From Candidatus Berkelbacteria bacterium (lineage in GTDB: Bacteria > Patescibacteriota > UBA1384 > XYA2-FULL-43-10 > CAINNR01), in NCBI GenBank assembly GCA_026397205.1, contig JAPLVH010000006.1:13392-77391 (forward strand): 64,000 nucleotides of DNA, given 5' to 3'. Of this stretch, positions 2,042-61,338 are shown in pieces; position 1 is the stretch's first letter; each line of letters opens with the position of its first letter. Under the pieces are notes generated by a model that was given only the letters and a program-made list of their open reading frames with translations, did not search any database and was not told the origin of the DNA. The position numbers were made by a program, and so were the translations under genes.

Positions 2042-3100
2042 ATGAAATCACCGCTTTCTTTCATCTTCAACCGATTTTCCCACGACATTGGGATTGATTT
2101 GGGTACCGCCAACTCTTTGGTTTATGTCTCCGGCCGCGGCATTGTCATCTCCGAGCCGTCGGTTGTCGCCATCAATAAAAAAACCAAGGAGATTTTGGCG
2201 ATCGGCGAAGAAGCCAAGCGGATGGTCGGCCGAACACCGGCCCACATTGTCGCCGTCCGGCCGTTGGTTGACGGCGTCATCTCCAATTTTGAAGTCACTG
2301 AGCAGATGCTCCGATATTATTTTGATAAAGTTCAACGAGAAAAATTTTCCCTTTTTCCACATCCGCGAGTCATCATTGGAATTCCTTACGGCGTAACCGA
2401 AGTAGAAAAACGAGCGGTTGAAGAGGGCGCAATCGCCGCCGGCGCCCGGGAAATTTATCTGATTGAGGAGCCAATCGCCGCGGCGATTGGCGCCCGTCTA
2501 CCGGTTCAGGACCCGGCTGGCTCAATGATTGTTGATATCGGCGGTGGCACGACTGAGGTGGCAATTATGTCGCTCGGCGGAATTGTTTCATCAAGATCTT
2601 TGCGGATTGCTGGCGATGAGATGAATCAAGATATTATTCAATATGCCAGGGACGAATTTAATTTGCTCCTCGGCGAACGAACGGCGGAGGAGATCAAAAT
2701 TAAAGTCGGCGCAGCGATACCGATAAAGGAGAAATTGGAAACACCGATGCGCGGCCGTGATTTGGTCTCCGGTCTACCGAAAGAAATTATCGTTGACTCG
2801 GCGCAAATTAGCCAAGCAATTTCCAAGTCGGTTTCGGCAATAATTGATGCGGTCAAGGTGACAATGGAGGAGTCGCCACCCGAACTTTTGGCTGATATCA
2901 TGGACCGGGGTATCATGCTCGCTGGTGGTGGAGCGCTTTTGCGCGGTCTCGACATACTGATTGCCGCCGAAACCCGGACCATCGTCCACATTGCCGATGA
3001 TCCACTAACCTGCGTCGTTCGTGGCACCGGAATTGTTTTGGAGGATATTGATATGCTTTCTGGAGTGCTGGTGCCAAATAAGTTTAAAAAAAGAATGTGA
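2042..3100 (+). CDS. mreB: Rod shape-determining protein MreB (actin-like ATPase)
   Basis: N-terminal 'IGIDLGTANSLVYV', 'DIGGGTTEVAI', 'GGGALLRGLD' actin/MreB motifs. 352 aa. Followed by mreC/mreD/PBP2. Confidence 0.9.
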   Translation: MKSPLSFIFNRFSHDIGIDLGTANSLVYVSGRGIVISEPSVVAINKKTKEILAIGEEAKRMVGRTPAHIVAVRPLVDGVISNFEVTEQMLRYYFDKVQREKFSLFPHPRVIIGIPYGVTEVEKRAVEEGAIAAGAREIYLIEEPIAAAIGARLPVQDPAGSMIVDIGGGTTEVAIMSLGGIVSSRSLRIAGDEMNQDIIQYARDEFNLLLGERTAEEIKIKVGAAIPIKEKLETPMRGRDLVSGLPKEIIVDSAQISQAISKSVSAIIDAVKVTMEESPPELLADIMDRGIMLAGGGALLRGLDILIAAETRTIVHIADDPLTCVVRGTGIVLEDIDMLSGVLVPNKFKKRM

Positions 3101-3108
3101 AAAGGAAA

Positions 3109-3267
3109 GCTCTAAATTCTAAATCCTAAGCTCTAAACAAATAAAACCAATGTTAAAAATTTCAAATAAATCCAAAGCTAAAACCGGAAAATTTTTATTT
3201 GACATTATTTGATTTTCATTTGAGTTTTGCATTTATTTGTTTAGAATTTAGAGCTTAGAGTTTAGTG
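3109..3267. repeat. Inverted tandem-heptamer arrays with an ~85-nt central region in the mreB-mreC spacer. Same architecture as the heptamer-array mini-elements elsewhere in the window.
   Basis: Left arm 3109-3145: 'gctctaa attctaa atcctaa gctctaa acaaataaa', four tandem heptamers NYTCTAA. Right arm 3232-3267: 'tttatttg ttagaat ttagagc ttagagt ttagtg'. The central region contains 'atttgacattatttg...gcatttattt', a motif that also occurs at 25.66, 25.80 and 54.93 kb. Confidence 0.6.
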
Positions 3268-4077
3268 TTTTTCATTATGTCCCCAAAACCCAACTCCTCA
3301 ATTTGTATATTAATCATCCTCGTCCTGACGATCTTTTTTCTCATCCCCTCGACTTTGAATCGCAAAGTTTCCGCCGGCATTTCCAGTTTTTTTCGACCGG
3401 TTTCCCGTTCGCTAGTTCACGCTGGCAAAAAAATTGCCAGCGGATTTTCCTTTATTTCGGAAATTTCCGACCTCCGGTCAAAAAATAATCAGCTGACCGC
3501 CGACTTAATCGCCGCCAAAGTTTACAACTCGAAATTGCAGGAATCAGAGTCAGAAAATGCCGGCCTATTAAAACAGCTCGATTATAAAAACGATAATCAA
3601 AATCAAAATCTGGTTCTGGCCGAGGTTGTCGAGCTCGATCCGACAAATTTTTATGACACAATTTCGATTGATCGCGGTACTGCTGACGGAGTTAAGCCGG
3701 GAATGGCCGTCGTCTCTCTCGGGGTTCTCGTTGGTAAAATTGACCAGGTTTTCCCAACTTCGGCAAAGGTGATTTTGATTACCGGCAAAGATTCGATCGT
3801 TCAGGTGATGCTCGGCGAGTCGAGGACAACCGGAATTCTGCGTGGCGGGATCTCCGGCATGACGCTGGAGGACATTCCGATTGATACTCCGGTTGCCGAC
3901 AACGAAAATATTATTACCTCCGGCCTTGGCGGCTTTCTGCCGAAGGGAATTTTTGTCGGCAATGCCGACAAGGAGATTTCCGGCAAATCGGACATTTTCA
4001 AAACACTAAAAGTCATTTCACCGATTGATTTTTCCAAGTTGGAAAGGGTTTTTGTGGTCATAGAAGGAACGACATAA
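3265..4077 (+). CDS. mreC: Rod shape-determining protein MreC. The tool start is GTG at 3265; the ATG at 3277 is also possible.
   Basis: N-terminal TM helix, coiled-coil segment, C-terminal beta domains with 'GMAVVSLGVLVGKIDQV...VILITGKDS' typical of MreC. Position between mreB and mreD. Confidence 0.75.
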   Translation: MFFIMSPKPNSSICILIILVLTIFFLIPSTLNRKVSAGISSFFRPVSRSLVHAGKKIASGFSFISEISDLRSKNNQLTADLIAAKVYNSKLQESESENAGLLKQLDYKNDNQNQNLVLAEVVELDPTNFYDTISIDRGTADGVKPGMAVVSLGVLVGKIDQVFPTSAKVILITGKDSIVQVMLGESRTTGILRGGISGMTLEDIPIDTPVADNENIITSGLGGFLPKGIFVGNADKEISGKSDIFKTLKVISPIDFSKLERVFVVIEGTT

Positions 4078-4087
4078 CTACAAGTTT

Positions 4088-4109
4088 CTTAAGTGACTTA
4101 AGTGACTTA
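4088..4109. repeat. Operon-junction palindrome CTTAAGTGACTTAAG (two overlapping copies) 6 nt upstream of the mreD ATG.
   Basis: 'cttaagtgacttaagtgactta'. No Shine-Dalgarno between it and the ATG at 4115. The same palindrome recurs at 10.87, 13.90, 25.29 and 58.07 kb. Confidence 0.6.
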
Positions 4110-6552: not shown

Positions 6553-6558
6553 TTTTAT

Positions 6559-6601
6559 GTCATTGCGAGAAGTCAAGCAGTCGGCAAACGACGAAGCAAT
6601 C
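6559..6601. repeat. Partial copy of the GTCATTGCGAG...CGAAGCAATC palindromic repeat (left half only)
   Basis: 'gtcattgcgag-N22-cgaagcaatc'. Full copies are at 19084-19154 and 21602-21664. Confidence 0.5.
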
Positions 6602-8296: not shown

Positions 8297-9550
8297 TCAG
8301 CTTTCGATTATTCCGCCGCCCAAAACTTCGTCCCACTTCGCCCGACCAAAGCGGGCTTCGCGGGACGGGCTTCGCCCGTAAATCACCGCCGACTGGCCGG
8401 GTGTAATTGCTCGTTGTGGCTCGGCGAATATGACTTTGATGTTGTCGCTAGATCCTTCGACAAGCTCAGGATGACTTGTGATTTTACAAGTCACTTCCGA
8501 ATGCCGGTATCTGATTTTAACTGAAAGATTTGAATTCTGAATTATGAATTCTGAATTGTGAATAAAATTTAAACTATTGACAATCATTTCTTTTTTGAAC
8601 ACTTCATTGTTGCCGCCAACAATCAACTGATTTTTTTCTTGATTAAATCCAACAACATAAAGCGGTTTTTTATCTTTGATTTTTGATTTGTCATTTTGAT
8701 TTTTGATTTTTGATTTTTGATCTATTAACTTTCTCTGTCCAATCGTATAATTTAGCAAACCTTGATGCTGACCGACAACATTGCCTTCGATATCGACAAT
8801 TTCGCCCGGCAGAAAAAACTTTTCTGGCAAATACCGGCGCAAAAAGTTGCGGTAATCTTTGTCGGCAAAAAAACAGATTTCCTGACTCTCCGGCTTCTCT
8901 TTGACTGGCAAATTATATTTGATCGCCAATTTTCGGACATCGATTTTTTTCATCTCGCCTAGCGGAAATAAAATTTTCGCCAACTGATTTTGATTCAGCC
9001 GGTAAAGCATATATGACTGGTCTTTGGTTTCGTCAACGCCTTTCAACAAATGATATTCCTTTTTACTTTTTGATTTATCATTTTGATCTTTGATTTTTGA
9101 TCTTTGATTTATTCTGGCATAGTGTCCCGTCGCCAATTTTTCGCAACCGATTGCCAATGCTTTTTTCAGAAGCAAATCAAATTTTATTTTTTCGTTACAG
9201 ATAATGCAGGGATTTGGCGTCCGCAAATTTTGATATTCGGTCAAAAAATAATCTACGACAGCTTTTTTGAACTCGCTTTTGGCGTTTATAACATAAAATG
9301 GAATGTTTAATTTCGCCGCTACCGCCCGGGCATCTTCCAGCGCCTGATAATCGCAACAGTGGTTGTCGCGCCGACAAGTTTTGCCATCCGGGAATAAGGG
9401 ACTTGTCCCGCGAAGTCCGCCTTGGGCAGACGAAGTGGGATCGCTCCACAATTTCAAAAACAGCCCGACCAAGTCGTGCCCGTAATCCTTTAGGATTTTT
9501 GCCGCCACGGCGGAATCAACACCACCGGACAGGGCAATTGCTAATTTCAT
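8297..9550 (-). CDS. mnmA: tRNA-specific 2-thiouridylase MnmA, carrying two in-frame heptamer-repeat insertions
   Basis: 'MKLAIALSGGVDSAVAA' PP-loop, catalytic Cys motifs, 417 aa. Inserted peptides 'KSKIKDQNDKSKSKKEY' and 'DQKSKIKNQNDKSKIKDKK' are encoded by (TGATTTT)n tracts. Confidence 0.85.
   Translation of the reverse strand: MKLAIALSGGVDSAVAAKILKDYGHDLVGLFLKLWSDPTSSAQGGLRGTSPLFPDGKTCRRDNHCCDYQALEDARAVAAKLNIPFYVINAKSEFKKAVVDYFLTEYQNLRTPNPCIICNEKIKFDLLLKKALAIGCEKLATGHYARINQRSKIKDQNDKSKSKKEYHLLKGVDETKDQSYMLYRLNQNQLAKILFPLGEMKKIDVRKLAIKYNLPVKEKPESQEICFFADKDYRNFLRRYLPEKFFLPGEIVDIEGNVVGQHQGLLNYTIGQRKLIDQKSKIKNQNDKSKIKDKKPLYVVGFNQEKNQLIVGGNNEVFKKEMIVNSLNFIHNSEFIIQNSNLSVKIRYRHSEVTCKITSHPELVEGSSDNIKVIFAEPQRAITPGQSAVIYGRSPSREARFGRAKWDEVLGGGIIES
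8670..8725. repeat. (TGATTTT)n heptamer tract, in frame inside mnmA
   Basis: 'tatctttgatttttgatttgtcattttgatttttgatttttgatttttgatc'. Confidence 0.7.
9061..9112. repeat. (TGATTTT)n heptamer tract, in frame inside mnmA
   Basis: 'ttttactttttgatttatcattttgatctttgatttttgatctttgattt'. Confidence 0.7.
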
Positions 9551-9651
9551 AATTGAGAGTTAAGAATTCAGAATGCAGAATGTAATTTAGAATTGAGAAT
9601 TTTTCAAAACAAAATCCCCTTCCGCAATTCTAAATTCTGAGATCTTAATTC

Positions 9652-10443: not shown

Positions 10444-10865
10444 TTTTTAAGTATCTTAAGTTGCTTAATTTTCTTCCGATAATCTTTTATCGCTTTCCTC
10501 ACCCCCTCTTCGGCCAAAATTGAGCAGTGGTATTTTGCCGGCGGGAATTTGCCCATCTCGGCGGCGATCTGTTTTGATGTTAGCTTTAACGCTTCTTCAA
10601 GTGATTTACCTTTCACTAGTTCGGTCGCAATAGACGACGAAGCAATCGCCGCCCCACAGCCCAAGGTTTGGAATTTGATGTCGGAAATGTATTCTTCTGG
10701 CTTACCGCTTACTAGCTTACGACTTACGACTTTTATAAAAATTCGCATAACATCCCCGCAATTCGGATTGCCGACAGTTCCGACGCCGTCGGCACCTTTA
10801 ATCTCACCGAGATTTCTCGGGTTTCGAAAATGCTCCATTATTTTTTCACTATATAAATTTTCCAT
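10440..10865 (-). CDS. iscU: Fe-S cluster assembly scaffold IscU/NifU-like, with an internal heptamer-derived insertion
   Basis: Three conserved Cys: 'NPNCGD', 'LGCGAA', 'YHCS'. Insert 'KVVSRKLVSGKP' is encoded by a (GCTTAC)-type tract at 10701-10730. Confidence 0.8.
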   Translation of the reverse strand: MENLYSEKIMEHFRNPRNLGEIKGADGVGTVGNPNCGDVMRIFIKVVSRKLVSGKPEEYISDIKFQTLGCGAAIASSSIATELVKGKSLEEALKLTSKQIAAEMGKFPPAKYHCSILAEEGVRKAIKDYRKKIKQLKILKK

Positions 10866-10871
10866 CTTTAT

Positions 10872-10903
10872 TCTTAAAAATCTTAAGTGGCTTAAGTTAC
10901 TTA
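10872..10903. repeat. Operon-junction palindrome (CTTAAGTGGCTTAAG variant) between the iscS stop and the iscU start
   Basis: 'tcttaaaaatcttaagtggcttaagttac'. No Shine-Dalgarno before the iscU ATG. Confidence 0.55.
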
Positions 10904-12142
10904 TTTCATCGGTGACATATTTCTAAGTTTTTCGACGATTTTTGGCATTACTTCCAATACCTTACCAATTTCCGCCTTGGTTGTCGAGCGGCCGAGGGTG
11001 AAACGAATCGAGCCGTGACACTGCTCTGGGTGCAAACCCATCGAAATCAGGACATGAGACGGCTCAAGCGAGCCGGAGGTGCAAGCCGAACCGGTCGAGG
11101 CGGCAATATTTTCCATATCAAGATTCAATAAAATTGATTCGCCTTCGGCATTCAAAAAAGAGATGTTGACATTCGCCGGCGACCGAAACTCCCGGCTACC
11201 GTTCAAAAATGAATTTGGAATTTTCAAAAGTCCATCGATTAATCCGTTTCTTAAATTTTCAATTCCATTTTTATTATTTATTATTTTTGATTTATTATTT
11301 AAAATTTCCACCGCTTTCCCAAACCCAACAATTCCCGCAACATTCTCCGTCCCGGCTCGCTTTTTATACTCCTGTCCGCCACCAACAATTTGCTGTTTGA
11401 TTTCGACCCCGTCGCGAAGATATAAAAGTCCGACACCTTTGGGTCCGTAAATTTTGTGTGCCGACAGCGTCAAAAGATCAACATGCAAATAGTCAACATT
11501 CATTTCAAAATACTCCGCCGCCTGCACCGCATCAGTGTGAAAAAAAATCCTACCGATATTTTGATCTTTGATCTTTGATTTTTGATTTTGTTTTTCAATC
11601 ATTTTCCCGATTTCCCGAATTGGCTGAACCGTTCCGATTTCGTTGTTGACATACATAATTGAAACCAATACTGTGTTTTTTTTGATTGCCGCCTCGACGT
11701 CGGCAACTTCGATAATTCCGTCGCGATTCGGCTTAACATATGTCGCTTCAATTTTCCCCTCTTCCTCCAACTCCTTGACCGACTGCAGCACCGCATGATG
11801 TTCAAACACACTGGTGATAATATGTGGTTTTTGGTTTTCTTTTTCTATTTTTACTCTGTCATTTTGCATTTTGATTTTTGATATTTGATTTTCTATAATT
11901 CCTCTTATCGCCAAATTGTCGGATTCCGATCCACCCGAAGTGAAAATAATTTCCTCCGTTTTGCAATTCAAAAACTCGGCAATTTTTCGCCGCGCTTCAT
12001 CAACGGCAAAACGCGCTTCCTGGCCGAGACCGTGAATCGAGGACGGATTTCCAAACTTATCGCTAAAATATGGCAGCATCTTTTTCAGCACATTATCATC
12101 CACCAAAGTCGTAGCCGCGTGATCTAAATATATTTTTTTCAT
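10901..12142 (-). CDS. iscS: Cysteine desulfurase IscS/NifS, with two in-frame heptamer insertions. The likely start is M at 12142; the tool ORF extends to 12166 through repeat sequence.
   Basis: 'MKKIYLDHAATT', PLP-Lys motif 'SAHKIYGPKGVGLLY', C-terminal catalytic Cys 'SACTSGS'. Inserts 'QNQKSKIKDQNIG' and 'ISKIKMQNDRVKIEKENQ'. Confidence 0.85.
   Translation of the reverse strand: MKKIYLDHAATTLVDDNVLKKMLPYFSDKFGNPSSIHGLGQEARFAVDEARRKIAEFLNCKTEEIIFTSGGSESDNLAIRGIIENQISKIKMQNDRVKIEKENQKPHIITSVFEHHAVLQSVKELEEEGKIEATYVKPNRDGIIEVADVEAAIKKNTVLVSIMYVNNEIGTVQPIREIGKMIEKQNQKSKIKDQNIGRIFFHTDAVQAAEYFEMNVDYLHVDLLTLSAHKIYGPKGVGLLYLRDGVEIKQQIVGGGQEYKKRAGTENVAGIVGFGKAVEILNNKSKIINNKNGIENLRNGLIDGLLKIPNSFLNGSREFRSPANVNISFLNAEGESILLNLDMENIAASTGSACTSGSLEPSHVLISMGLHPEQCHGSIRFTLGRSTTKAEIGKVLEVMPKIVEKLRNMSPMK
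11558..11598. repeat. (TGATYTT)n heptamer tract, in frame inside iscS
   Basis: 'ttttgatctttgatctttgatttttgattttg'. Confidence 0.7.
11848..11895. repeat. Heptamer tract (GTCATTTTGCATTTTGATTTTTGATATTTGATTTTC), in frame inside iscS
   Basis: Same arm sequence as in the complete elements at 12.2, 23.2 and 26.0 kb. Confidence 0.7.
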
Positions 12143-12300
12143 AAGAAATAAAAAATAAAAAATCAAATATTAAAATGATAAATCAAAATTCAAAAAGGAT
12201 TTCTGGAATCTTTTTCTTTTTTACTCCGTCATTTTGCATTTTGATTTTTTCTAGCTTCAGCTGACCCTGCGGGGATATTTGCATTTGCAATCCTTCGCAA
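12142..12300. repeat. Complete heptamer-array mini-element: left arm (AAAATCA-like)n, central unique segment, right arm (TGATTTT)n, plus a GATAGCTGACCCTGCGGGGA-type module. It overlaps the iscS 5' end and the 3' end of the Phd-like ORF.
   Basis: 'aaaaatcaaatattaaaatgataaatcaaaattcaaaaagg ... ccgtcattttgcattttgattttttctagcttcagctgaccctgcggggatatttgc'. Confidence 0.65.
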
Positions 12301-13902: not shown

Positions 13903-13934
13903 CCTAAGTTGCTTAGGTGACTTAAGTGACTTAG
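13903..13934. repeat. Operon-junction palindrome (two copies, CCTAAGTTGCTTAGG + TGACTTAAGTGACTTAG) between the upstream gene stop and the tatD start
   Basis: 'cctaagttgcttaggtgacttaagtgacttag'. Confidence 0.6.
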
Positions 13935-17971: not shown

Positions 17972-18748
17972 TTAATTCTCAATTACATTCTGAGATCTTA
18001 ATTTTGAATTCTTAATTATCACCACAAATTCGCCTTTTATTTTATGATTTTTTAGGCCAGAAATGATGTCGGCAATTTTGCCGCTCCAATATTCTTCAAA
18101 CTTTTTTGTCATTTCGCGGGCGATGAATATCTCTGTGTCGGCGGCAAAAAAAACTGATATATCTTTCAGTGTCCGCTCGATTCTCTGTGCCGATTCGTAG
18201 ATAACGACCGGACATTTTAGTGCCGATAATTCTTTCAGTTTTGTCTGCCGACCTTTTTTCTTCGGCAAAAAACCGGCAAAGTAAAATTCTTTGTCAACAA
18301 TTCCCGAAACACTAACCGCCGCCGTCAACGCCGACGGTCCGGGAATTGGAATGATTTGGATTTCATTTCCATCATTTTGACTTTTGATTTTTGATTTTTG
18401 AATTAATTTCTGTCCCGGATCAGAAATTCCCGGCGTGCCATTATCGCTGACATAAGCCGCATTTTCACCATCACTTATCCGCCGAATCACCATTTCAATT
18501 TTCTCCTCCGACGAATGCCGGTGAAGTGAGATCAACTCTTTTTTGATTCCCATGTGATGTAAAAGTCCACCGGCAACTCGAGTATCTTCGCAAACAACAA
18601 AATCAACGGCTGATAAAATCTCAATCGCTCGTTTCGTTATATCGCCCAAATTCCCAATCGGCGTCGCCACAATGTAGAGTATCCCCTGTTTCATCTTGAC
18701 AAAAGTGTAGCATTTTTTTTCAAAATATGATAGTATCTGGAAAGACAA
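17972..18748 (-). CDS. rsmI: 16S rRNA (cytidine1402-2'-O)-methyltransferase RsmI, with an in-frame heptamer insertion
   Basis: 'ILYIVATPIGNLGDIT...EDTR' tetrapyrrole-methylase-fold RsmI signature. Insert 'KSKIKSQNDGNE'. Confidence 0.8.
   Translation of the reverse strand: MSFQILSYFEKKCYTFVKMKQGILYIVATPIGNLGDITKRAIEILSAVDFVVCEDTRVAGGLLHHMGIKKELISLHRHSSEEKIEMVIRRISDGENAAYVSDNGTPGISDPGQKLIQKSKIKSQNDGNEIQIIPIPGPSALTAAVSVSGIVDKEFYFAGFLPKKKGRQTKLKELSALKCPVVIYESAQRIERTLKDISVFFAADTEIFIAREMTKKFEEYWSGKIADIISGLKNHKIKGEFVVIIKNSKLRSQNVIEN
18369..18404. repeat. (TGATTTT)n heptamer tract, in frame inside rsmI
   Basis: 'ccatcattttgacttttgatttttgatttttgaat'. Confidence 0.7.
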
Positions 18749-19083: not shown

Positions 19084-19154
19084 GTCATTGCGAGCCATTG
19101 AGCAAAGCGAAAGGCGAAGCAATCCTTTAAGATTGCTTCGTTCCTCGCAATGAC
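19084..19154. repeat. Long nested palindromic repeat GTCATTGCGAG...GAAGCAATC-ctttaa-GATTGCTTC...CTCGCAATGAC (copy 1)
   Basis: 11-bp outer stem and 9-bp inner stem. Lies downstream of the Nramp-like gene. A second copy at 21602-21664 brackets a two-gene minus-strand unit. Confidence 0.65.
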
Positions 19155-19164
19155 AAAGGGAAAA

Positions 19165-20667
19165 CTATTTCAGCCACTGTAAAATCATCATCAAAATTAG
19201 TGCCATCATGACTACGAAAGCAAACCAACCGCCGGCGTTTGACCAAAATTTATTTTTGTGTTCGCCCATAATTTCTTTTGAATTGGCGATTTTTAAGGTG
19301 ATGACGAGCAAAATCGGAACTAAAATTCCGGCGATAACTTGCGAATAGAGTAGCATTCGCATCGGGTCAATGCCGAAAAGCGCCACCAGTCCGGAGGCGA
19401 GGACGGAGAAAATTATGACAATGTAAAAACCGCGGGCCTCGGAAAATTTTCTGTCGAGTCCTTCGCGCCAGTGAAAAACATCGGAGATAACATAAGCCGA
19501 TGTCGCCGCCATCACCGGCAGAGCAATTAGCCCGGCGCCCAAAATCCCGATCGAAAACAGGGCAAAGGAGAAATTTCCGGCTAATGGTTTTAGCGCCAGC
19601 GCTGCCGATTGTGGCGAGGAGATAAAAACATTTTTGCCGGCGAAAACCGTCGCTGTCGCGACGATGATAAAAAACGAGATCATATTCGACCAAATCATTC
19701 CGGCGGTGACGCCGGTTTGGGTCTTGCCCAGATCCTTGACCCGAACATTCTCCTCGACTTCCTCGGTCGTCTGCCAGAAAAAATTGTAAGCTGAAAGCGT
19801 ACCACCAACCAAGGCGACCGCTACCAGCCACCAGTCATGACCAAATGATATTGAAGGCAAAAAAGTGCCGTGAAGAATCTGCATCCACGGCGGGTGCATC
19901 ATAAATGTTGAAACGACATAAGCCAGAAGTGCCAAAGTGACAACAAAAAGATAACGGCTGATAACGGCATAACCTTTGGTGACGAGAAAAATCGCAATCA
20001 AAAGTCCGATCGGCAGAATCAACCAAAACCAGCTGATGCCGAGAATCGTGCCTAAAATATTGGACATCGCCGCAATGTCGGCGCCGATGATGATAAAATT
20101 TGTAATTAAAATTGCCAGCGCCACCGGCACACCGACACGCATTCCAAATCTTTCGCTGATAATTCGGCCAAGTCCCTTTTTTGTCACAACACCGATTCTG
20201 GCGGTCATCTCTTCGATGGCGATCAACATCGGCGTCGAAATCAACAAAAGCCAGAGTTGCGAGAAGCCGGCAATTGCGCCGGACTGGGCGTAGGTGACGA
20301 CCGAACTGGGATCGTCATCGGCCGAACCGGTGATAACGCCCTTGCGTGAATAAAGAAAAAAATCCCGAATATTTCGACGTTTTTTATAGGGCAGGGAGAC
20401 AATCCGCCCAAGTTCGCCAGCAACTAATTTTGCGCTCTCCGACTCAACTTTAGCGGTAATTTTTGCTCCGCTGGCAACTTCTCGGCCAGCAAATTCAACC
20501 ACCTCTTTGCCGGCATTAGCTCCGCCGGCAATGACATCGTAAAAACCCTCTCCGACTTTCTCGACACCACTGCCAACCTGGCCGACATCACTGACAGCTC
20601 GCCTAACCTCGGGGATTTTTTCTTTGGCTGATTTTTCTTTCCCTATTTTTGAATTTTGATCTGTCAT
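19165..20667 (-). CDS. Nramp-family-like divalent metal cation transporter with an N-terminal soluble extension
   Basis: 'GSADDDPSSVVTYAQSGAIAGFSQLWLLL' resembles the Nramp 'DPGN...QAGA.FGY.LLW' motif. About 11 TM helices; 500 aa. Confidence 0.5.
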   Translation of the reverse strand: MTDQNSKIGKEKSAKEKIPEVRRAVSDVGQVGSGVEKVGEGFYDVIAGGANAGKEVVEFAGREVASGAKITAKVESESAKLVAGELGRIVSLPYKKRRNIRDFFLYSRKGVITGSADDDPSSVVTYAQSGAIAGFSQLWLLLISTPMLIAIEEMTARIGVVTKKGLGRIISERFGMRVGVPVALAILITNFIIIGADIAAMSNILGTILGISWFWLILPIGLLIAIFLVTKGYAVISRYLFVVTLALLAYVVSTFMMHPPWMQILHGTFLPSISFGHDWWLVAVALVGGTLSAYNFFWQTTEEVEENVRVKDLGKTQTGVTAGMIWSNMISFFIIVATATVFAGKNVFISSPQSAALALKPLAGNFSFALFSIGILGAGLIALPVMAATSAYVISDVFHWREGLDRKFSEARGFYIVIIFSVLASGLVALFGIDPMRMLLYSQVIAGILVPILLVITLKIANSKEIMGEHKNKFWSNAGGWFAFVVMMALILMMILQWLK

Positions 20668-20695
20668 TTTGATTTTTAATTTTTGATTTTTGAAT
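20647..20695. repeat. (TGATTTT)n heptamer tract spanning the 5' end of the transporter gene and the gap to ksgA
   Basis: 'tttgaattttgatctgtcattttgatttttaatttttgatttttgaattt'. Confidence 0.65.
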
Positions 20696-21554
20696 TTACA
20701 ACATTATATAATTTTAGCCAGTCCTCAATTGTCAATTCTTGCGCTCTGATTTTTTCCGACAACCCCGCACTTTTAATTATATCAGATGCTTCGGTTTTAG
20801 AGATATGAAGTCCGGCGGCCAAATTATTTTCCAAGGTCTTTCTTCGGCTAGCAAAACCAAATTTGACAATTCGAAATAGATCCGCTTCCTTAACTTTACG
20901 CTTTTCGCTTTTAGTTTTGAGTTTGATAATCGCCGACTCAACTTTTGGCAGCGGGAAAAACGAAGTTGATTTTACAATGTCGACAATTTCCACATCGGCA
21001 TAAAACTGAACTGAAACCGACAAAAGCGACATCTCGCCAGGACGAGCAACAATTCGTTCGGCAACTTCTTTCTGCACCAACAAAACCATCAACTCCGGTT
21101 TGTTGTCCGCTTCCAAAAATTTTCTAATGATGGCAGAAGTAATATTGTAGGGAATATTTGCGACGACTTTGTAGTCATAAGCCGTAAGCTGTAAGCTGTA
21201 AGCCGATAAATCCAGATCCAGCGCGTCTTCATTTACTATTTTAATTTTTACTTTGTCATTTTTCTTGCGATAGCTGACCCTGCGGGGATTTTTGATATTT
21301 GATATTTGATTTAGAAGTTCGGCGAGAAAGTCGTCTTTTTCAATTGCCACGACCCGGCCGGCTCGGCTGACAAGTTCCTCGGTCAAAACTCCCAGCCCCG
21401 GCCCGATTTCGATGACGGTGTCGGTTGATTTTAAATCCGCTGCTTCGACGATTTTCGCCAACACCTCATCGTCAACCAAAAAATTCTGCCCCATATTCTT
21501 TTTCGCCCAAATTTTATTCGCCTGCAAGAATTGAATCAGTTCTTCTTTGTTCAT
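20676..21554 (-). CDS. rsmA: 16S rRNA (adenine1518/1519-N6)-dimethyltransferase RsmA/KsgA, with heptamer insertions
   Basis: 'MGQNFLVDDEVLAKIV...VIEIGPGLGVLTEEL' KsgA signature. Inserts 'SAYSLQLTAY' and 'KNPRRVSYRKKNDKVKIKI'. Confidence 0.85.
   Translation of the reverse strand: MNKEELIQFLQANKIWAKKNMGQNFLVDDEVLAKIVEAADLKSTDTVIEIGPGLGVLTEELVSRAGRVVAIEKDDFLAELLNQISNIKNPRRVSYRKKNDKVKIKIVNEDALDLDLSAYSLQLTAYDYKVVANIPYNITSAIIRKFLEADNKPELMVLLVQKEVAERIVARPGEMSLLSVSVQFYADVEIVDIVKSTSFFPLPKVESAIIKLKTKSEKRKVKEADLFRIVKFGFASRRKTLENNLAAGLHISKTEASDIIKSAGLSEKIRAQELTIEDWLKLYNVVNSKIKN
21181..21203. repeat. (TGTAAGC)n heptamer tract, in frame inside ksgA
   Basis: 'gccgtaagctgtaagctgtaagc'. Confidence 0.65.
21245..21318. 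repeat. Mini-element fragment (GATAGCTGACCCTGCGGGGA module + (TGATATT)n arm), in frame inside ksgA
   Basis: 'gtcatttttcttgcgatagctgaccctgcggggatttttgatatttgatatttgatttag'. Confidence 0.7.
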
Positions 21555-21601
21555 ATTCTTATCTTATCTTTTCTCTCCACTTTGAGCAAGAAAAATGATT
21601 T

Positions 21602-21664
21602 GTCATTGCGAGCCATCAGCGGAGGCGCGGCAAACTTTTTGGATTGCTTCGTTCCTCGCAATGA
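21602..21664. repeat. Copy 2 of the GTCATTGCGAG...CTCGCAATGAC palindromic repeat
   Basis: 'gtcattgcgagccatcagcggaggcgcggcaaactttttggattgcttcgttcctcgcaatgac'. Confidence 0.65.
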
Positions 21665-21673
21665 CGAAATTCC

Positions 21674-21702
21674 TTGACAAATTCAAACTTCTGCGCTAAG
21701 AT
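21674..21702 (+). promoter_or_regulatory. Sigma70-type promoter
   Basis: TTGACA (21674-21679), a 17-nt spacer, TAAGAT (21697-21702). GGAGG RBS before the ATG at 21741. Confidence 0.5.
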
Positions 21703-22150: not shown

Positions 22151-23107
22151 TTATTGCTTGAGTTCTTCGACCAAAACGTTAGAACAACCGGCCGACGGAC
22201 AACCAAGTTGAGTGAGATAAGTTTGCGACAAATCGAGAACCACGCCATCCGGTGGCGAAGCGTTGCCCCAAGTGGCGTTGACGCTGACGATGATTGATTT
22301 GTTGCCTGACGAAATTCGGATTAAAGTTCCTTTTGGATATTTTGAAATGCCGGAAACAACATAGTTTGAAACCAGCGTCATCGTCGCCCGACCACGAACC
22401 GAGGAAAGTACCGTAACTTTCGTTCCGGTGTAATGAATTTCAGTTTTTGCTTCTTTGGTGATTTCAGTCGACAAAAGTGTCCGCTCAACCTCTTCGCCGT
22501 CTTCGCGACGAACGCGGTAGGTTAATTTTTTCTCGCCATTTATGCCAGCTTCAGTTCGTTTTTTGCCATAATCGAGATTTGGATCATCTTTATTTACAAT
22601 TTGGAAAGCGATCGGTTTCGTCTCAACAATATTTGTAATCGCAACTCTGGTGATGATAATTTTATCGCCATCGGCAATGGCCGAATCTAATTTGAAATTG
22701 GTTTTGTCATCGGTGCCGAGTTCGATATTTTTCTCGGTCAAAAGCTCACCGGCGGTTTTCAGCCAACTGCGAAAAATTATGGCTTTTTTGCCGTCAATAA
22801 TTGTGATCGCCGGCGCTTGATGAACAGTAATAACACTTCCAATTCTCGCCTCCGGATCAGGCAAAGTCGAGGCACGATCTTCGGGGTTGATCGTGATGCC
22901 GAGATCTTTGGCAATTACCTCGACCTTCAAACTACGGCTTGTACCGACGACTTCCGACGACTTTCCCGATGGCGCAATAACGATAAATTTGTAAGCAAAA
23001 CTTGGCGACGATTCGATGACTCCTGATGCCAGCGATTTTCGAGAAACAAAAAAGCCAGCGAAAATGATGGAAACCAAAACAATCGAGATGATAAAATTTC
23101 GACGCAT
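22151..23107 (-). CDS. Secreted/anchored cell-wall protein with G5-like and C-terminal 3D (MltA-like double-psi) domains
   Basis: N-terminal TM/signal. 'YTGTKVTV' G5-like segment. C-terminal 'GTLIRISSGNKSIIVSVNATWG...DGVVLDLSQTYLTQLG' resembles 3D-domain consensus. Confidence 0.45.
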   Translation of the reverse strand: MRRNFIISIVLVSIIFAGFFVSRKSLASGVIESSPSFAYKFIVIAPSGKSSEVVGTSRSLKVEVIAKDLGITINPEDRASTLPDPEARIGSVITVHQAPAITIIDGKKAIIFRSWLKTAGELLTEKNIELGTDDKTNFKLDSAIADGDKIIITRVAITNIVETKPIAFQIVNKDDPNLDYGKKRTEAGINGEKKLTYRVRREDGEEVERTLLSTEITKEAKTEIHYTGTKVTVLSSVRGRATMTLVSNYVVSGISKYPKGTLIRISSGNKSIIVSVNATWGNASPPDGVVLDLSQTYLTQLGCPSAGCSNVLVEELKQ

Positions 23108-23110
23108 AGG

Positions 23111-23236
23111 ATTATTATATCAAATATCAAATATCAAAGATCAAAATGTTGGTCGGCACTCCGTGCTGAGATTTTTATATTCTTTTTACCTTTTTCATCT
23201 ATCATTTTGATTTTTGATATTTTATTTTTGATTTTT
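23111..23236. repeat. Complete heptamer-array mini-element (intergenic): (ATCAAAT/ATCAAAG)n arm, core TTGGTCGGCACTCCGTGCTGAGATTT, unique segment, inverted (TGATTTT)n arm
   Basis: 'tatcaaatatcaaatatcaaagatcaaaatgttggtcggcactccgtgctgagattttta...catctatcattttgatttttgatattttatttttgatttttcc'. Fills the whole gap between two minus-strand genes. Confidence 0.7.
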
Positions 23237-23238
23237 CC

Positions 23239-25284: not shown

Positions 25285-25323
25285 AAGTTGCTTAAGTTTC
25301 TTAAGTGACGTAAGTCACTTATT
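25285..25323. repeat. Operon-junction palindromes immediately upstream of the helicase start codon
   Basis: 'taagttgcttaagtttcttaagtgacgtaagtcacttat' includes AAGTGACgtaaGTCACTT. Confidence 0.55.
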
Positions 25324-25659
25324 CATAATAGCCGAAAAAAATCCACTCGGCAATCAAAAAAGGCGCAGGATTTACTTGCTTATAGGGAACAAAAATTTTA
25401 ATTATTGCCCTGCAGTATCACTACGCCTTTGAGGGGTGTCGCGAAAACGACTTAGAATCGCTTCGTGGCATCCCTCAATTGATATTTTATCTATCAAGAG
25501 ACACCTTTCACGTTTCTTTTTTCCCCGTGTTCTTTGTCCTTACCAAATTTTTTTGATTTTCTGATTTACTTTTTCTTTTTGTTTTATTTGGTTTGGTTTT
25601 GGCAAGGAGATCAGAAAAAAAATTTCTAATGTCAAATTTCTAATTTCTAAAAAATATTT

Positions 25660-25838
25660 GACATTTGTAATTAGGAATTAGGCATTTATTTCTAACTTCC
25701 TTGCCAACGGTAAAATCAACGAAAAAACTCCTCGGAAGAGGAGCACATTAAAAATTTCAAATGACTAATTTCTAATGCCAAACAAAATCCATTTGACATT
25801 TGTAATTTGGAATTAGGCATTTATTTTATTCGCCCCTC
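25660..25838. repeat. Two direct copies (about 36 nt each) of ATTTGACATTTGTAATTNGGAATTAGGCATTTATTT, with (ATTTCTA)n tracts
   Basis: Copies at about 25663-25700 and 25800-25838. Related copies at 3206-3240 and 54930-54965. Confidence 0.5.
25720..25745 (-). terminator. Possible minus-strand rho-independent terminator in the long intergenic region
   Basis: Minus-strand reading 'ctcctcttccgaggag' + TTTTTTC. No annotated minus-strand gene upstream of it in the gap, so possibly a small RNA. Confidence 0.35.
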
Positions 25839-25968
25839 CAGACGAATGAGTGCTATTAAATTGTTAATGTTATATTTATTATAACGCACAATTCCCCAAT
25901 TTGTCAAGACATAAAGCGACTATTTTCGATCAGACAAAAAATTAGTCAGTGTGGAAATAGATAATTTA

Positions 25969-26073
25969 TATCAAAAATCAAAATGTTGGTCGGCACTCCG
26001 TACCGGGATTTTATTTCTTTAGATATATTTTATTTGTCATTTTGATTTTTGATATTTGCTTTTTGATTTTCTT
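25969..26073. repeat. Complete heptamer-array mini-element (intergenic). The right arm runs into the promoter of the downstream gene.
   Basis: 'tcaaaaatcaaaatgttggtcggcactccgtaccgggattttatttctttagatatattttatttgtcattttgatttttgatatttgctttttgattttc'. Confidence 0.7.
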
Positions 26074-26090
26074 TCCGATTTGACTTATTG

Positions 26091-52328: not shown

Positions 52329-53282
52329 TTATACTCTCTGATAGCCAAAGATAAATCCACGAATTGAAAACAGCAAACTGATAAAAAGCAAATAGACATT
52401 TAGAAACGGCAAAAGCAAAATTCGCCAGTTTTTATATTCAGCCAGGAACATCAGCTTGGTGTAATAAAAAGCATATACTATTATGAGCGCAATTCCAAGA
52501 GGACGCAAATACGGCACCAACAGCGAGATCAAAAGAAGCTCGCGGAAAAAAGCACTAACGATTTGTTTTGGGGACTGAATGACTCCAAGTCGCAGCATTA
52601 CTCCTTGGGCCTCGGAATACTGGCACTGTTTTTTGATGATGTCACTAAGTGAAAATTTTTTGTCATCGCGGTGAAGATGGATAATCTCCGCCTCAGACGG
52701 AACGATTCTGCCGATTTTTTTCAAGCGGTTGATAATCTCGCCATCTTCGCCGGCGGTCCGAAAATTTTTCTGATCGAAACCGCCGATTTTCAGCAGTGAC
52801 GACTTTCGGAAACAATCAAATTTGCCGTCGAGTCCGGAGTATTTTTTTCCGACTAGTCGCGAGAAAAAAACTTTCTGCCAGAAATTATATTTTTGCCAAA
52901 CTTCTTTTGGATGCAAAACATTGTGGTAAGCGGCGACGATTTCCGGCTGATCTTTTTCGAATGGCTCGATCAATTTTGATAGCGAATTTTTTTTGAATAT
53001 CACATCTTGGTGGAGTGTCACAATCAACTCCGACTTTGATTTTTTGATTCCCTCGTTATAACTCGCCGCCAGCCCAATCGGTTTTTTGTGATTGATAATC
53101 GTCGCATTTTTAAGTTTTTTCGACTTAACAAAACCAGAAATAATTTTAAATGAGTCATCGCGAGAGCCGTCGTTGATTAAAAAAATTTCATCAATTTTGA
53201 TGCTTTGTTTAACCAAACTGTCTAAAGTTTTCTCAATTGTCGAAGCGCCGTTATAAATCGGCACGAGGATGCTGATCGTCAT
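52329..53282 (-). CDS. GT2 family glycosyltransferase. Likely start M at 53282; the tool start is 53318.
   Basis: 'MTISILVPIYNGASTIEKTLDSLVKQS...IFLINDGSRDDS', DxD 'HQD'-region. Confidence 0.7.
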   Translation of the reverse strand: MTISILVPIYNGASTIEKTLDSLVKQSIKIDEIFLINDGSRDDSFKIISGFVKSKKLKNATIINHKKPIGLAASYNEGIKKSKSELIVTLHQDVIFKKNSLSKLIEPFEKDQPEIVAAYHNVLHPKEVWQKYNFWQKVFFSRLVGKKYSGLDGKFDCFRKSSLLKIGGFDQKNFRTAGEDGEIINRLKKIGRIVPSEAEIIHLHRDDKKFSLSDIIKKQCQYSEAQGVMLRLGVIQSPKQIVSAFFRELLLISLLVPYLRPLGIALIIVYAFYYTKLMFLAEYKNWRILLLPFLNVYLLFISLLFSIRGFIFGYQRV

Positions 53283-53283
53283 A

Positions 53284-58073: not shown

Positions 58074-58095
58074 CTTAAGCTTCTTAAGCGACTTA
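58074..58095. repeat. Operon-junction palindrome (CTTAAGCTTCTTAAG variant) between the rSAM stop and the downstream start
   Basis: 'cttaagcttcttaagcgactta'. Confidence 0.55.
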
Positions 58096-61224: not shown

Positions 61225-61338
61225 AAATCAAAAATTAAATATCAAAGATCAAAATGTTGGTCGGCACTCCGTGCCGGGATTTATTCTTTTTCATCTTTTT
61301 TATTTATCATTTTAATTTTTGATATTTGATTTTTGCTT
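61225..61338. repeat. Complete heptamer-array mini-element filling the intergenic gap: (ATCAAAA)n arm, core TTGGTCGGCACTCCGTGCCGGGATTT, inverted (TGATTTT)n arm
   Basis: 'aaatcaaaaattaaatatcaaagatcaaaatgttggtcggcactccgtgccgggatttattctttttcatcttttttatttatcattttaatttttgatatttgatttttgc'. Confidence 0.7.

What the first reader, a model, noticed from the sequence alone, without database searches (positions are those of the whole stretch)
3109..3267. Inverted heptamer arrays bracket an ~85-nt insert between mreB and mreC
The mreB-mreC spacer is 165 nt, far longer than the tight spacing usual for mreBCD operons. It is organised as (NYTCTAA)4, about 85 nt of unique sequence, then (TTAGARN)4. That gives 35-nt inverted arms able to form a long hairpin, with the right arm running into the mreC start codon.

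The central segment carries the ATTTGACATT...GCATTTATTT motif. That motif is also present twice in the 25.3-26.0 kb intergenic region and at 54.93 kb. The same heptamer, (ATTTCTA)n, flanks those copies at 25.63 and 26.59 kb.

This looks like a second mini-element family of the same design (heptamer-array inverted termini plus a cargo motif). It is inserted into an essential cell-shape operon and could attenuate or regulate mreC/mreD expression.
Basis: seen in the sequence. Interest (0 to 1): 0.65.

Follow-up and report, generated by a model that had tools for sequence, protein, structure and literature searches.

The report
Heptamer-built palindromic insert between mreB and mreC
The long mreB-mreC spacer is one copy of a genome-wide class of small palindromic inserts built from 7-base repeats in a Candidatus Berkelbacteria genome; it is missing from close relatives, and looks like selfish or mutational DNA that folds out of the way, not a dedicated cell-shape regulator.

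Summary
The 176-nt mreB-mreC spacer (3101-3276) carries two inverted heptamer arrays. The whole spacer folds into one imperfect 63-pair hairpin (z = -4.9). The hairpin base lies 3 nt from the mreB stop and 3 nt from the mreC ATG.

The "unique cargo" is not cargo. It is stem sequence, itself period-7-like, and its motif belongs to a CATTTGN-type heptamer array.

The organism is a Candidatus Berkelbacteria (CPR) MAG. Close relatives have 3-6 nt at this junction (empty sites). Others carry hairpins of the same design with different heptamers, and one (L006) carries a homologous element.

The window holds 40 period-7 arrays against about 3 expected. Three other gene junctions carry stop-to-start hairpins. 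A separate dispersed family has three intergenic copies at 74-82% identity. In-frame heptamer inserts sit inside UvrD, MnmA, IscS-like, KsgA and RsmI genes.

Best reading: a MITE/RPE-like, heptamer-built palindromic insert, tolerated because folding keeps stop and start adjacent. Any effect on mreC expression is inferred, not shown.

No paper in the held library describes this class in CPR. The closest described relatives are TAACTGA/TTTTGAA heptamer arrays near start codons and Rickettsia palindromic elements.

The parts
2042..3100 (+). mreB, ending in TGA at 3098-3100
   Evidence: Pfam MreB_Mbl 4.3e-139. 85-89% aa identity to Berkelbacteria MAGs.
3101..3276 (+). The whole mreB-mreC spacer: one heptamer-built palindromic insert that folds into a single long imperfect hairpin
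   Evidence: 63 pairs, outer pair 3104:3273, inner pair 3183:3192, -45.6 kcal/mol, z = -4.9. Absent from L001, L004 and L007. Identical in L081 and L082.
3111..3137 (+). Left (A-rich strand) heptamer array, TCTAAAT x3.9
   Evidence: TRF. Pairs with 3239-3270.
3138..3183 (+). Inner 5' arm. Holds two 21-nt direct repeats (3138-3158 and 3163-3183, 86% identical). Block 3163-3186 is conserved in the L006 spacer.
   Evidence: the repeat finder family D1. Pairwise alignment with L006.
3184..3191 (+). Apical loop, CCGGAAAA
   Evidence: MFE structure.
3192..3238 (+). Inner 3' arm.
   Evidence: The same motif occurs inside CATTTGN arrays in metagenome hairpins.
3239..3270 (+). Right (T-rich strand) heptamer array, GTTTAGA x4.6. 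TAG recurs every 7 nt, so all three frames are stopped. The array ends 6 nt before the mreC ATG.
   Evidence: TRF. Sequence.
3277..4077 (+). mreC. There is no AGGA/GGAG/GAGG in the 25 nt upstream.
   Evidence: Pfam MreC 2.5e-34. Upstream sequence.
25621..25700 (+). Shorter relative of the focal element: (AATTTCT)n followed by ATTTGACATT...GCATTTATTT
   Evidence: Weak hairpin, z = -1.4.
25750..25830 (+). Second shorter relative. Shares three collinear blocks with the focal element: TTAAAAATTTCAAAT, ATTTGACATT and GCATTTATTT.
   Evidence: Hairpin z = -1.7.
9551..9651 (-). Same design at another junction (PIG-L-like gene to MnmA): inverted AGAATTN / AATTCTN arrays. The hairpin base is 1 nt from the stop and 0 nt from the start.
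   Evidence: (z = -4.7).
23108..23238 (-). Same design, the other family: (ATATCAA)n - GGTCGGCACTCCGTGC core - (TTTTGAT)n, between UvrD and the G5-domain gene
61225..61338 (-). Same design, second copy of that family. The hairpin base is 3 nt from the stop and 4 nt from the start.
   Evidence: z = -6.1; 82% identical to the 23.1-kb copy.

Best explanation
The spacer is one copy of a lineage-wide class of small, non-coding palindromic inserts. Their arms are tandem arrays of 7-nt units: an A-rich array, then a T-rich array that is its reverse complement.

**Origin (shown unless marked).** The element was added to an ancestrally tight mreB-mreC junction of 0-13 nt. In this Berkelbacteria clade such elements are gained, lost and replaced quickly. 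They survive only where they do little harm:
- exactly between a stop and the next start codon;
- inside ORFs, in frame, when the strand read as codons has heptamers without stop codons.

How they spread is inferred. The likeliest route is copy-and-paste of existing copies, combined with slippage inside the arrays and homogenisation of the two arms by template switching.

**Effect in the mre operon (inferred).**
- The element is transcribed as part of the mreBCD mRNA.
- It folds into a hairpin about 80 bp long.
- The hairpin base brings the mreB stop and the mreC start within a few nucleotides of each other.
- The region upstream of the mreC ATG is therefore sequestered. It would be opened mainly when a ribosome terminating on mreB unwinds the 5' arm.
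- mreC translation would stay coupled to mreB translation.

I read the element as tolerated selfish or mutational DNA with a side effect on expression, not as a dedicated regulator of cell shape.
For: **Insert status**
- L001, L004 and L007 are empty (3-6 nt). Most distant relatives have 0-13 nt.
- Presence is patchy on the MreB+MreC tree. L003 (113 nt) is sister to L007 (6 nt). L002, L005 and L006 have 110, 25 and 153 nt.

**Class membership**
- 40 period-7 arrays against 3.0 +/- 1.9 in block shuffles.
- Four long junction hairpins in the window have helix bases 0-4 nt from both the stop and the start codon.
- The other family has three copies at 74-82% identity over about 130 aligned positions (element plus flanks), inserted in both orientations relative to genes.
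- Two in-frame UvrD inserts share 52 identical nt.
- The focal element shares three collinear blocks with the copies at 25.6-25.8 kb.
- The L006 spacer is homologous (z = 6.5-8) although 4-fold sites are saturated.

**Same behaviour at a second orthologous junction.** The UvrD-to-G5 spacer is 159 nt with a hairpin in L203, 31 nt without one in L204, and 142 nt with a -54.7 kcal/mol hairpin in L205.

**Inside an ORF.** The L205 UvrD insert is a hairpin (z = -4.6) translated in frame.

**No alternative annotation.** There is no Rfam family, tRNA or terminator match.

**Real sequence.** The spacer is identical in two independent assemblies.
Against: - No target-site duplication can be read at any copy, because the ends are low-complexity arrays.
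- No transposase was linked to the elements.
- Arm sequences differ from locus to locus, so one transposase that recognises a fixed terminal repeat is unlikely.
- The focal family has only three loosely similar copies in 64 kb.
- Six of the 14 genomes in the clade (the window plus L001-L013) carry a hairpin of 107-176 nt at this one junction. That could mean selection for it, not just tolerance.
- The coupling mechanism rests on a predicted fold only.
- Sense and antisense folds show no consistent asymmetry, so nothing shows selection at the RNA level.
- Shine-Dalgarno sequences are rare genome-wide (9 of 59 genes). Their absence before mreC is therefore uninformative.
Confidence: 0.6

Rival explanations
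1. The element grew in place and was never inserted. Slippage expanded a short heptamer at the junction, and intrastrand template switching (quasi-palindrome correction) copied one arm onto the other. The result is a self-lengthening palindrome. No mobile copy was involved.
For: - More than 20 different heptamer units occur in the window.
- Relatives have different units at the same junction.
- The arms contain 21-nt higher-order repeats and can pair in several registers.
- Heptameric simple repeats are reported to be over-represented in many bacteria, with polymerase slippage proposed as the cause (PMC4692102).
- Template switching is reported to create hairpins de novo (bioRxiv 10.1101/2023.04.19.537475, title and abstract seen).
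Against: - Dispersed copies share long non-array cores. These include the GGTCGGCACTCCGTGCCGG core of the other family, the 52 nt shared by the two UvrD inserts, and the three collinear blocks shared by the focal element and the 25.7-kb copy. That requires copying between loci.
- The window and L006 elements share a non-array block.
Confidence: 0.2
2. It is a dedicated cis-regulatory RNA of the mre operon. It would act as a partial terminator, an RNase III processing site or a translational gate, kept by selection to set the MreB:MreC/MreD ratio.
For: - A hairpin of 107-176 nt is present at this junction in 6 of the 14 genomes in the clade (the window plus L001-L013), and in some outside it.
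- The window and L006 elements are similar despite saturated synonymous sites.
- The hairpin base abuts the stop and start codons.
- A GUUUUUC run follows the array part of the stem.
Against: - Sister genomes lack it entirely (L001, L004, L007).
- Sequence is not conserved across most occupied sites (z about 0 for L002, L011 and L012).
- Identical architecture occurs at unrelated junctions and inside ORFs.
- The scan finds no terminator-like site in the spacer.
- There is no Rfam match.
- The sense strand has no folding advantage overall.
Confidence: 0.1
3. The T-rich right half supplies an internal promoter for mreCD, as some MITEs do. mreC transcripts would then start inside the element, lack the left arm and never form the hairpin.
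For: - TTGAGT-16-TAGAAT lies at 3220-3247 with 9 of 12 matches.
- TAGAAT is also present in the right arm of L006.
- In another element the T-rich arm ends in TGATATAAT, 6 nt before the G5-gene ATG. TGnTATAAT is conserved at that gene in L203 and L205.
Against: - Promoter-like hits are not above chance (8 against 4.3 +/- 1.8).
- The TTGACA at 3199-3204 has no -10 box.
- No promoter-like box is conserved before mreC among the occupied relatives.
Confidence: 0.07
4. The heptamer arrays are operator or centromere-like binding sites for a protein that reads contiguous heptads in direct and inverted orientation. The omega repressor of plasmid pSM19035 does this (from my own knowledge). Alternatively they bind an RNA-binding protein that acts near start codons.
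For: - Contiguous heptads occur in direct and inverted orientation.
- Arrays lie next to start codons, as proposed for TAACTGA repeats (PMC4679880) and for TTTTGAA repeats in Nostoc (bioRxiv 10.1101/2022.06.06.494920).
Against: - There are too many different units for one binding protein.
- Arrays also lie inside ORFs.
- No candidate protein was identified.
Confidence: 0.03

Closest known systems
Bacterial MITEs that sit inside operons and are co-transcribed as hairpins (Correia, ERIC, RUP and BOX types; review PMC10969869)
   Same: - Short (176 nt), non-coding and AT-rich.
- Terminal inverted repeats.
- Dispersed related copies.
- Presence/absence polymorphism between relatives.
- Located between co-directional genes.
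- Predicted long RNA hairpin.
   Different: - The arms are tandem arrays of heptamers whose sequence differs between loci, not one conserved terminal repeat.
- No target-site duplication is visible.
- No partner insertion sequence was found.
Rickettsia palindromic elements (RPEs; described in PMC10969869)
   Same: Palindromic repeats found both between genes and in frame inside housekeeping genes. Here these are UvrD, MnmA, IscS-like, KsgA and RsmI. The L205 UvrD insert is a translated hairpin.
   Different: - RPEs are families with a conserved consensus of about 150 bp and a conserved peptide.
- These elements are built from variable 7-nt units.
- The lineage is different (CPR, not Rickettsia).
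- No sequence relationship was tested.
Intergenic heptamer direct repeats next to start codons: TAACTGA in Beggiatoaceae, Cyanobacteria and Bacteroidetes (PMC4679880); TTTTGAA/TTCAAAA in Nostoc PCC 7120 (bioRxiv 10.1101/2022.06.06.494920); STRR heptamers in Calothrix (cited in PMC4692102)
   Same: - 7-nt tandem units that end within a few nt of a start codon.
- The orientation that carries stop codons in all three frames faces the gene. The stop-free orientation is the one found inside ORFs.
- Shine-Dalgarno sequences are scarce.
- TTTTGAA itself occurs here (20647-20697).
   Different: - Those are direct arrays of one favoured heptamer and are not reported as paired inverted arrays.
- Here two complementary arrays bracket a core and form a hairpin that spans the whole gap from stop to start.
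Hairpins between the ribosome-binding region and the start codon, or between cistrons, that keep translation coupled (phage T4 genes 38 and 25; MS2 coat-replicase; from my own knowledge)
   Same: A stable stem-loop whose base juxtaposes upstream and downstream translation signals. The geometry here is stop, 3 nt, hairpin, 3 nt, start.
   Different: This is a functional analogy only. Those hairpins are short and specific to one gene. No translation data exist here.

Membership tests
MITE | Short (about 50-500 bp), non-coding, AT-rich | tested here: met
   176 nt, GC 0.24, no ORF of 50 aa or more within it.
MITE | Terminal inverted repeats | tested here: met
   50-nt arms at 76% complementarity, with a 17-nt perfect block. 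63 pairs in all.
MITE | Target-site duplication flanking the element | tested here: inconclusive
   No direct repeat is visible at the ends of the focal copy or of the 23.1, 25.9 and 61.2 kb copies. The ends are low-complexity arrays, so a short duplication could be hidden.
MITE | Multiple dispersed copies of one family in a genome | tested here: inconclusive
   The focal family has two shorter copies with three collinear shared blocks. The sister family has three clear copies at 74-82% identity. Only 64 kb of the genome was available.
MITE | Empty orthologous sites in relatives | tested here: met
   L001, L004 and L007 have 3-6 nt.
MITE | A parent insertion sequence or transposase with matching terminal repeats | not tested
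   Only 18 of about 59 window ORFs were scanned against Pfam, and none is a transposase. The rest of the genome was not available.
Rickettsia palindromic elements | Palindromic repeat inserted in frame in protein-coding genes as well as between genes | tested here: met
   The class does this: the UvrD alignment and the L205 in-ORF hairpin. The focal copy itself is intergenic.
Rickettsia palindromic elements | Sequence membership in one of the RPE consensus families | not tested
   No RPE consensus was available to compare. The host lineage is different.
TAACTGA / STRR-type heptamer direct repeats | Tandem heptamers (2 or more copies) ending within a few nt of a start codon, in the stop-containing orientation | tested here: met
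   GTTTAGA x4.6 at 3239-3270, with TAG in every unit, 6 nt before the ATG.
TAACTGA / STRR-type heptamer direct repeats | One specific heptamer used throughout the genome | tested here: not met
   24 canonical units occur among the window's 40 arrays.
Intrinsic (Rho-independent) terminator | Short G+C-rich stem followed by a U tract | tested here: not met
   The scan reports no terminator-like site in 3101-3276. The stem has 48 A-U, 10 G-C and 5 G-U pairs.
REP/BIME | G+C-rich imperfect palindromes of 20-40 nt associated with a RAYT transposase | tested here: not met
   The element is AT-rich and 176 nt. A RAYT gene was not searched for.
Known structured RNA (Rfam 15) | Match at a family's gathering score | tested here: not met
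   No match in the window. Only sub-threshold matches to plant miRNA-precursor hairpins (25 bits against a gathering score of 90).
Omega-type heptad operators | Contiguous heptads with the WATCACW consensus bound by a ribbon-helix-helix protein | tested here: not met
   The heptad architecture is present, but the units are TCTAAAT/GTTTAGA and vary by locus. The protein partner cannot be tested here.

The most novel reading that the evidence does not exclude
Inverted heptamer-array palindromes may be an undescribed class of self-propagating DNA in Berkelbacteria and perhaps other small-genome uncultivated lineages. They would spread or grow without a classical transposase that recognises terminal repeats, through slippage plus hairpin templating.

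Two design rules would let them persist:
- At gene junctions the palindrome spans exactly from stop to start. Folding then restores stop-start adjacency and translational coupling.
- Inside genes the strand read as codons uses stop-free heptamers. Because 7 is coprime to 3, all three reading frames encode the same 7-residue repeat.

These elements would then be a major, overlooked source of intergenic length and protein-insert variation in CPR genomes.
Probability: 0.25. Interest if true: 0.75.

Novelty: new variant of a known kind. Interest (0 to 1): 0.55.

Why it matters
CPR genomes are small and tightly packed, so DNA that lengthens operon junctions and housekeeping proteins is unexpected.

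If this class is as general as the window and five relatives suggest, three things follow:
- It explains many "long spacers" and low-complexity protein inserts in CPR MAGs.
- It is a likely cause of assembly breaks. Contig L082 ends inside the right arm.
- It gives a concrete system for two open questions: how palindromic DNA is tolerated inside essential operons, and why 7-nt repeats are favoured in bacteria.

For the mre operon specifically, it predicts that mreC translation depends on termination at mreB. That can be tested with simple reporters.

Tried and rejected
- **Known RNA families.** Rfam at gathering score on the whole window gave nothing. A permissive search on the spacer gave only sub-threshold plant miRNA-precursor hairpins. 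No tRNA or tmRNA was found.
- **Promoter from the embedded TTGACA.** It has no -10 partner, and promoter-like hits are not above chance.
- **Intrinsic terminator.** No site lies in the spacer.
- **RNA-level selection, tested by sense/antisense asymmetry.** Sense folds better in 7 of 12 hairpins, and two favour antisense by 3.8 and 11.3 kcal/mol. This is uninformative.
- **Missing Shine-Dalgarno as evidence for coupling.** Only 9 of 59 genes have one by a crude call, so its absence before mreC means little.
- **Different heptamers at one site as proof of independent insertions.** Rejected because 4-fold sites between these genomes are saturated (0.23-0.48 identity).
- **Metagenome scan for the 'cargo motif'.** It returned more than 120 hits. 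Most are chance or a conserved coding sequence. About a dozen are CAAATGN/CATTTGN hairpins. An attempt to read the gene junctions around them automatically was too noisy to use.
- **Target-site duplications.** None can be read because of the low-complexity ends.
- **Literature.** Nine searches found no description of heptamer-array hairpins in CPR/Patescibacteria. Elhai et al. 2008 on small dispersed repeats in Nostoc could not be retrieved.
- **Small ORF in the spacer** (ATG 3151, 20 codons). The peptide is not conserved in L006, so I did not pursue it.

Full report
**1. What is at the coordinates**

ORF 2042-3100 is MreB (Pfam MreB_Mbl, 4.3e-139). The ORF starting at ATG 3277 is MreC (2.5e-34). 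A small unassigned ORF, probably mreD, and a PBP2-type transpeptidase follow.

The spacer is 176 nt (3101-3276), or 164 nt if the in-frame GTG at 3265 is used.

- TRF reports TCTAAAT x3.9 at 3111-3137 and GTTTAGA x4.6 at 3239-3270.
- The arms are complementary over 50 nt (76%), with a perfect 17-nt block.
- The + strand RNA folds at -45.6 kcal/mol against -26.2 +/- 4.0 for dinucleotide shuffles (z = -4.9). The - strand gives z = -3.3.

The whole spacer is one imperfect hairpin. It has 63 pairs, from 3104:3273 down to 3183:3192, with an 8-nt loop. Autocorrelation inside the spacer peaks at lags 7 and 14.

The central ~85 nt is therefore not unique cargo. ATTTGACATT and GCATTTATTT both lie in the stem.

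The spacer is identical in two contigs assembled independently from different sequencing runs. One of them breaks inside the right arm. It is not an assembly artefact.

**2. The organism and the orthologous site**

The closest MreB loci are Candidatus Berkelbacteria / Patescibacteria MAGs at 85-89% aa identity.

| Group | Locus | mreB-mreC spacer |
|---|---|---|
| Near clade, empty | L001, L004, L007 | 3, 3 and 6 nt |
| Near clade, short | L005, L008 | 25 and 54 nt |
| Near clade, hairpin, CACAGAA/TCTGTG units | L002 | 110 nt |
| Near clade, hairpin, CAAATGN/CATTTGA units | L003 | 113 nt |
| Near clade, hairpin, CTAAAT/TTTAGA units | L006 | 153 nt |
| Near clade, hairpin, AAAGTTN units | L011 | 107 nt |
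| Near clade, hairpin, AATACAA/TTGTATT units | L012 | 119 nt |
| More distant relatives | most | 0-13 nt |

- All the occupied sites read A-rich arm, then T-rich arm.
- On a MreB+MreC tree the occupied and empty sites are interleaved.
- Four-fold degenerate sites between these genomes are saturated (identity 0.23-0.48). Different heptamers at one site therefore cannot by themselves separate repeated insertion from divergence in place.
- Against that background the window and L006 spacers are clearly similar (z = 6.5-8). The similarity includes a non-array block, AAATAAATCCAAA.G.CTAAAA.CC.

Empty sites exist.

**3. The element is one instance of a genome-wide class**

The window has 40 non-overlapping period-7 arrays against 3.0 +/- 1.9 in block-wise dinucleotide shuffles. 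Period 14 gives 12 against 0.7. No other period between 4 and 12 exceeds 10. The arrays use 24 different canonical units.

*Gene junctions.* Four long junctions between co-directional genes are filled end to end by a hairpin.

| Junction | Spacer | Stop to hairpin base | Hairpin base to start |
|---|---|---|---|
| mreB to mreC | 176 nt | 3 nt | 3 nt |
| 9654 to 9550 | 101 nt | 1 nt | 0 nt |
| 23241 to 23107 | 131 nt | hairpin overlaps the stop by 1 nt | 0 nt |
| 61341 to 61224 | 114 nt | 3 nt | 4 nt |

Fold z-scores for these elements run from -2.6 to -6.1.

*A dispersed family.* A second family has the layout (ATATCAA)n - GGTCGGCACTCCGTGC core - (TTTTGAT)n. It has three intergenic copies at 74-82% identity over about 130 aligned positions, element plus flanks. 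The copies lie in both orientations relative to the neighbouring genes.

*Inside genes.* Heptamer arrays also lie in frame inside housekeeping genes: MnmA, an IscS-like aminotransferase, RsmI, KsgA and UvrD. They are nearly always oriented so that the coding strand carries the stop-free version. The two UvrD inserts share 52 identical nt. In an alignment of 20 Berkelbacteria UvrD orthologues, the same two positions carry variable-length low-complexity inserts in some genomes and nothing in others. In L205 the insert is a full hairpin (-49.5 kcal/mol, z = -4.6). It is translated in frame as ...NSKSEYRNPKQIRNSNN...SNFEFRYSDL....

*Relatives.* Three syntenic relatives show the same dominance of period-7 arrays (0.27-0.82 per kb). 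They show the same variable occupancy at a second orthologous junction, UvrD to the G5-domain gene: 159 nt with a hairpin, 31 nt without, and 142 nt with a -54.7 kcal/mol hairpin.

**4. The focal family**

The composite motif occurs three times in the window against 0 expected. The copy at about 25.75 kb shares three collinear blocks with the focal element: TTAAAAATTTCAAAT, ATTTGACATT and GCATTTATTT. TTCTAA-type arrays recur at 9.6, 25.6 and 26.6 kb.

A scan of public metagenomes for the motif returned mostly chance or coding hits. About a dozen were (CAAATGN)n...(CATTTGN)n inverted-array hairpins on unrelated contigs. The motif is best read as a piece of a recurrent heptamer type, not as cargo.

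**5. How it most likely works**

Shown:
- It is an insert relative to close relatives.
- It is a complete palindrome built of 7-nt units.
- It exactly fills the gap between stop and start.
- Elements of the same design are dispersed, turn over quickly, and also occur in frame inside genes.

Inferred:
- It is co-transcribed with mreBCD. No convincing promoter or terminator lies in it.
- It folds. The fold hides the region upstream of the mreC ATG, and a ribosome terminating at the mreB stop would open the base of the stem. mreC translation would stay coupled to mreB.
- This explains why only fully self-complementary inserts persist at such junctions. It also explains why stop-containing arrays face the downstream start codon, while the stop-free orientation is the one that survives inside ORFs.

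The mode of spread is unresolved. Shared non-array cores argue for copying between loci. The diversity of arm units, the 21-nt higher-order repeats and the known excess of heptameric repeats in bacteria (PMC4692102) argue for slippage and arm homogenisation after, or instead of, insertion.

**6. Rivals**

- *Dedicated mre regulator.* Disfavoured by empty sister genomes, by lack of sequence conservation at most occupied sites, and by the same architecture at unrelated places.
- *Internal promoter.* TTGAGT-16-TAGAAT at 3220-3247 cannot be excluded, but it is not above chance.
- *Protein-binding heptads.* Unlikely given the diversity of units.
- *Strand asymmetry test.* It gave no evidence for selection on the sense RNA.
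- *Shine-Dalgarno argument.* These sequences are rare genome-wide, so I do not use their absence as evidence.

**7. Comparison with what is known**

By design the element sits closest to operon-internal MITEs and to Rickettsia palindromic elements (PMC10969869). In its building blocks it is closest to heptamer arrays next to start codons: TAACTGA in Beggiatoaceae, Cyanobacteria and Bacteroidetes (PMC4679880) and TTTTGAA in Nostoc (bioRxiv 10.1101/2022.06.06.494920).

It fails the single-heptamer criterion of the latter group. It lacks a demonstrable target-site duplication or a partner transposase for the former.

Nine full-text searches found no description of inverted heptamer-array hairpins in CPR. 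The library is incomplete, so this is absence of evidence only.

**8. Verdict**

| Question | Verdict |
|---|---|
| Observation | Confirmed |
| "Inserted mini-element of a family" | Supported |
| "Cargo motif" and "embedded promoter" | Not supported |
| Regulatory effect on mreC/mreD | Untested |
| Novelty | New variant of a known kind |
| Interest | Moderate for this locus, higher for the class |

Noticed in passing
window 4088-4109, 10447-10468, 10882-10903, 13912-13933, 25284-25306, 58074-58095: Arrays of a 9-nt unit containing CTTAAG (CTTAAGTGA and variants) lie immediately upstream of at least six start codons on both strands: mreD, the UvrD gene and four others. Period-9 arrays are also enriched (10 against 2.7 expected). 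This could be a translation-initiation or regulator-binding signal. It is distinct from the heptamer elements.
   Followed up: partly
window about 6556-6600, 19095-19160, 21596-21690: A third repeat type: GTCATTGCGAG...GCTTCGTTCCTCGCAATGAC palindromes, G+C-richer and REP-like, in three intergenic regions.
   Followed up: no
window 23108-23238, 25950-26075, 61225-61338; also 24072-24167 and 24942-25057 inside UvrD: A dispersed family with the layout (ATATCAA)n - GGTCGGCACTCCGTGCCGG - (TTTTGAT)n. The two in-frame UvrD inserts carry a related core, AGCCACGGAGTGGCT. Its stem differs from the intergenic core by compensatory changes (GCCAC/GTGGC against GGCAC/GTGCC). In the UvrD copies the second array is TTGTAGT, so the coding strand stays free of stop codons.
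   Followed up: partly
window 8297-9550 (MnmA), 10901-12166 (IscS-like), 17972-18748 (RsmI), 20676-21554 (KsgA), 23239-25284 (UvrD): Housekeeping genes carry one to three in-frame heptamer arrays each. Matches to Pfam domains are 13-28 residues longer than the models in MnmA and 21 in the IscS-like protein. UvrD orthologues range from 616 to 779 aa because of variable inserts at the same positions.
   Followed up: partly
window 23107-23125 (- strand); L203 about 12065-12086; L205 about 8435-8456: The G5-domain gene downstream of UvrD has an extended -10 box (TGATATAAT, TGTTATAAT or TGCTATAAT) ending only 6-7 nt before its ATG in three diverged genomes. This suggests a nearly leaderless transcript. 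In the window the box is part of the T-rich arm of the element.
   Followed up: no
whole window: Only 9 of 59 crudely called genes have AGGA/GGAG/GAGG 3-14 nt upstream of the start codon. Most starts are preceded by AT-rich or repeat sequence. Translation initiation in this organism may be largely independent of Shine-Dalgarno pairing.
   Followed up: partly
L056 4130-4163; L047 124-576; L027 and L021 mreB-mreC spacers: Heptamer arrays also occur in or near the mreB-mreC spacer of non-Berkelbacteria MAGs. Examples are AATGCTG x4.9 in an unclassified bacterium and three arrays in an Omnitrophota contig. The phenomenon is not confined to this clade.
   Followed up: no
window 20647-20697: (TTTTGAA) x7.4 spans the KsgA stop and the next gene's start. 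This is the same heptamer reported in contiguous repeats upstream of start codons in Nostoc PCC 7120. Here it is one-armed, with the A-rich strand on the coding side.
   Followed up: no
window 52400-53283: My crude gene caller left an 884-nt gap here. The - strand appears to start a glycosyltransferase-like ORF at about 53283. It may be a missed or disrupted gene.
   Followed up: no
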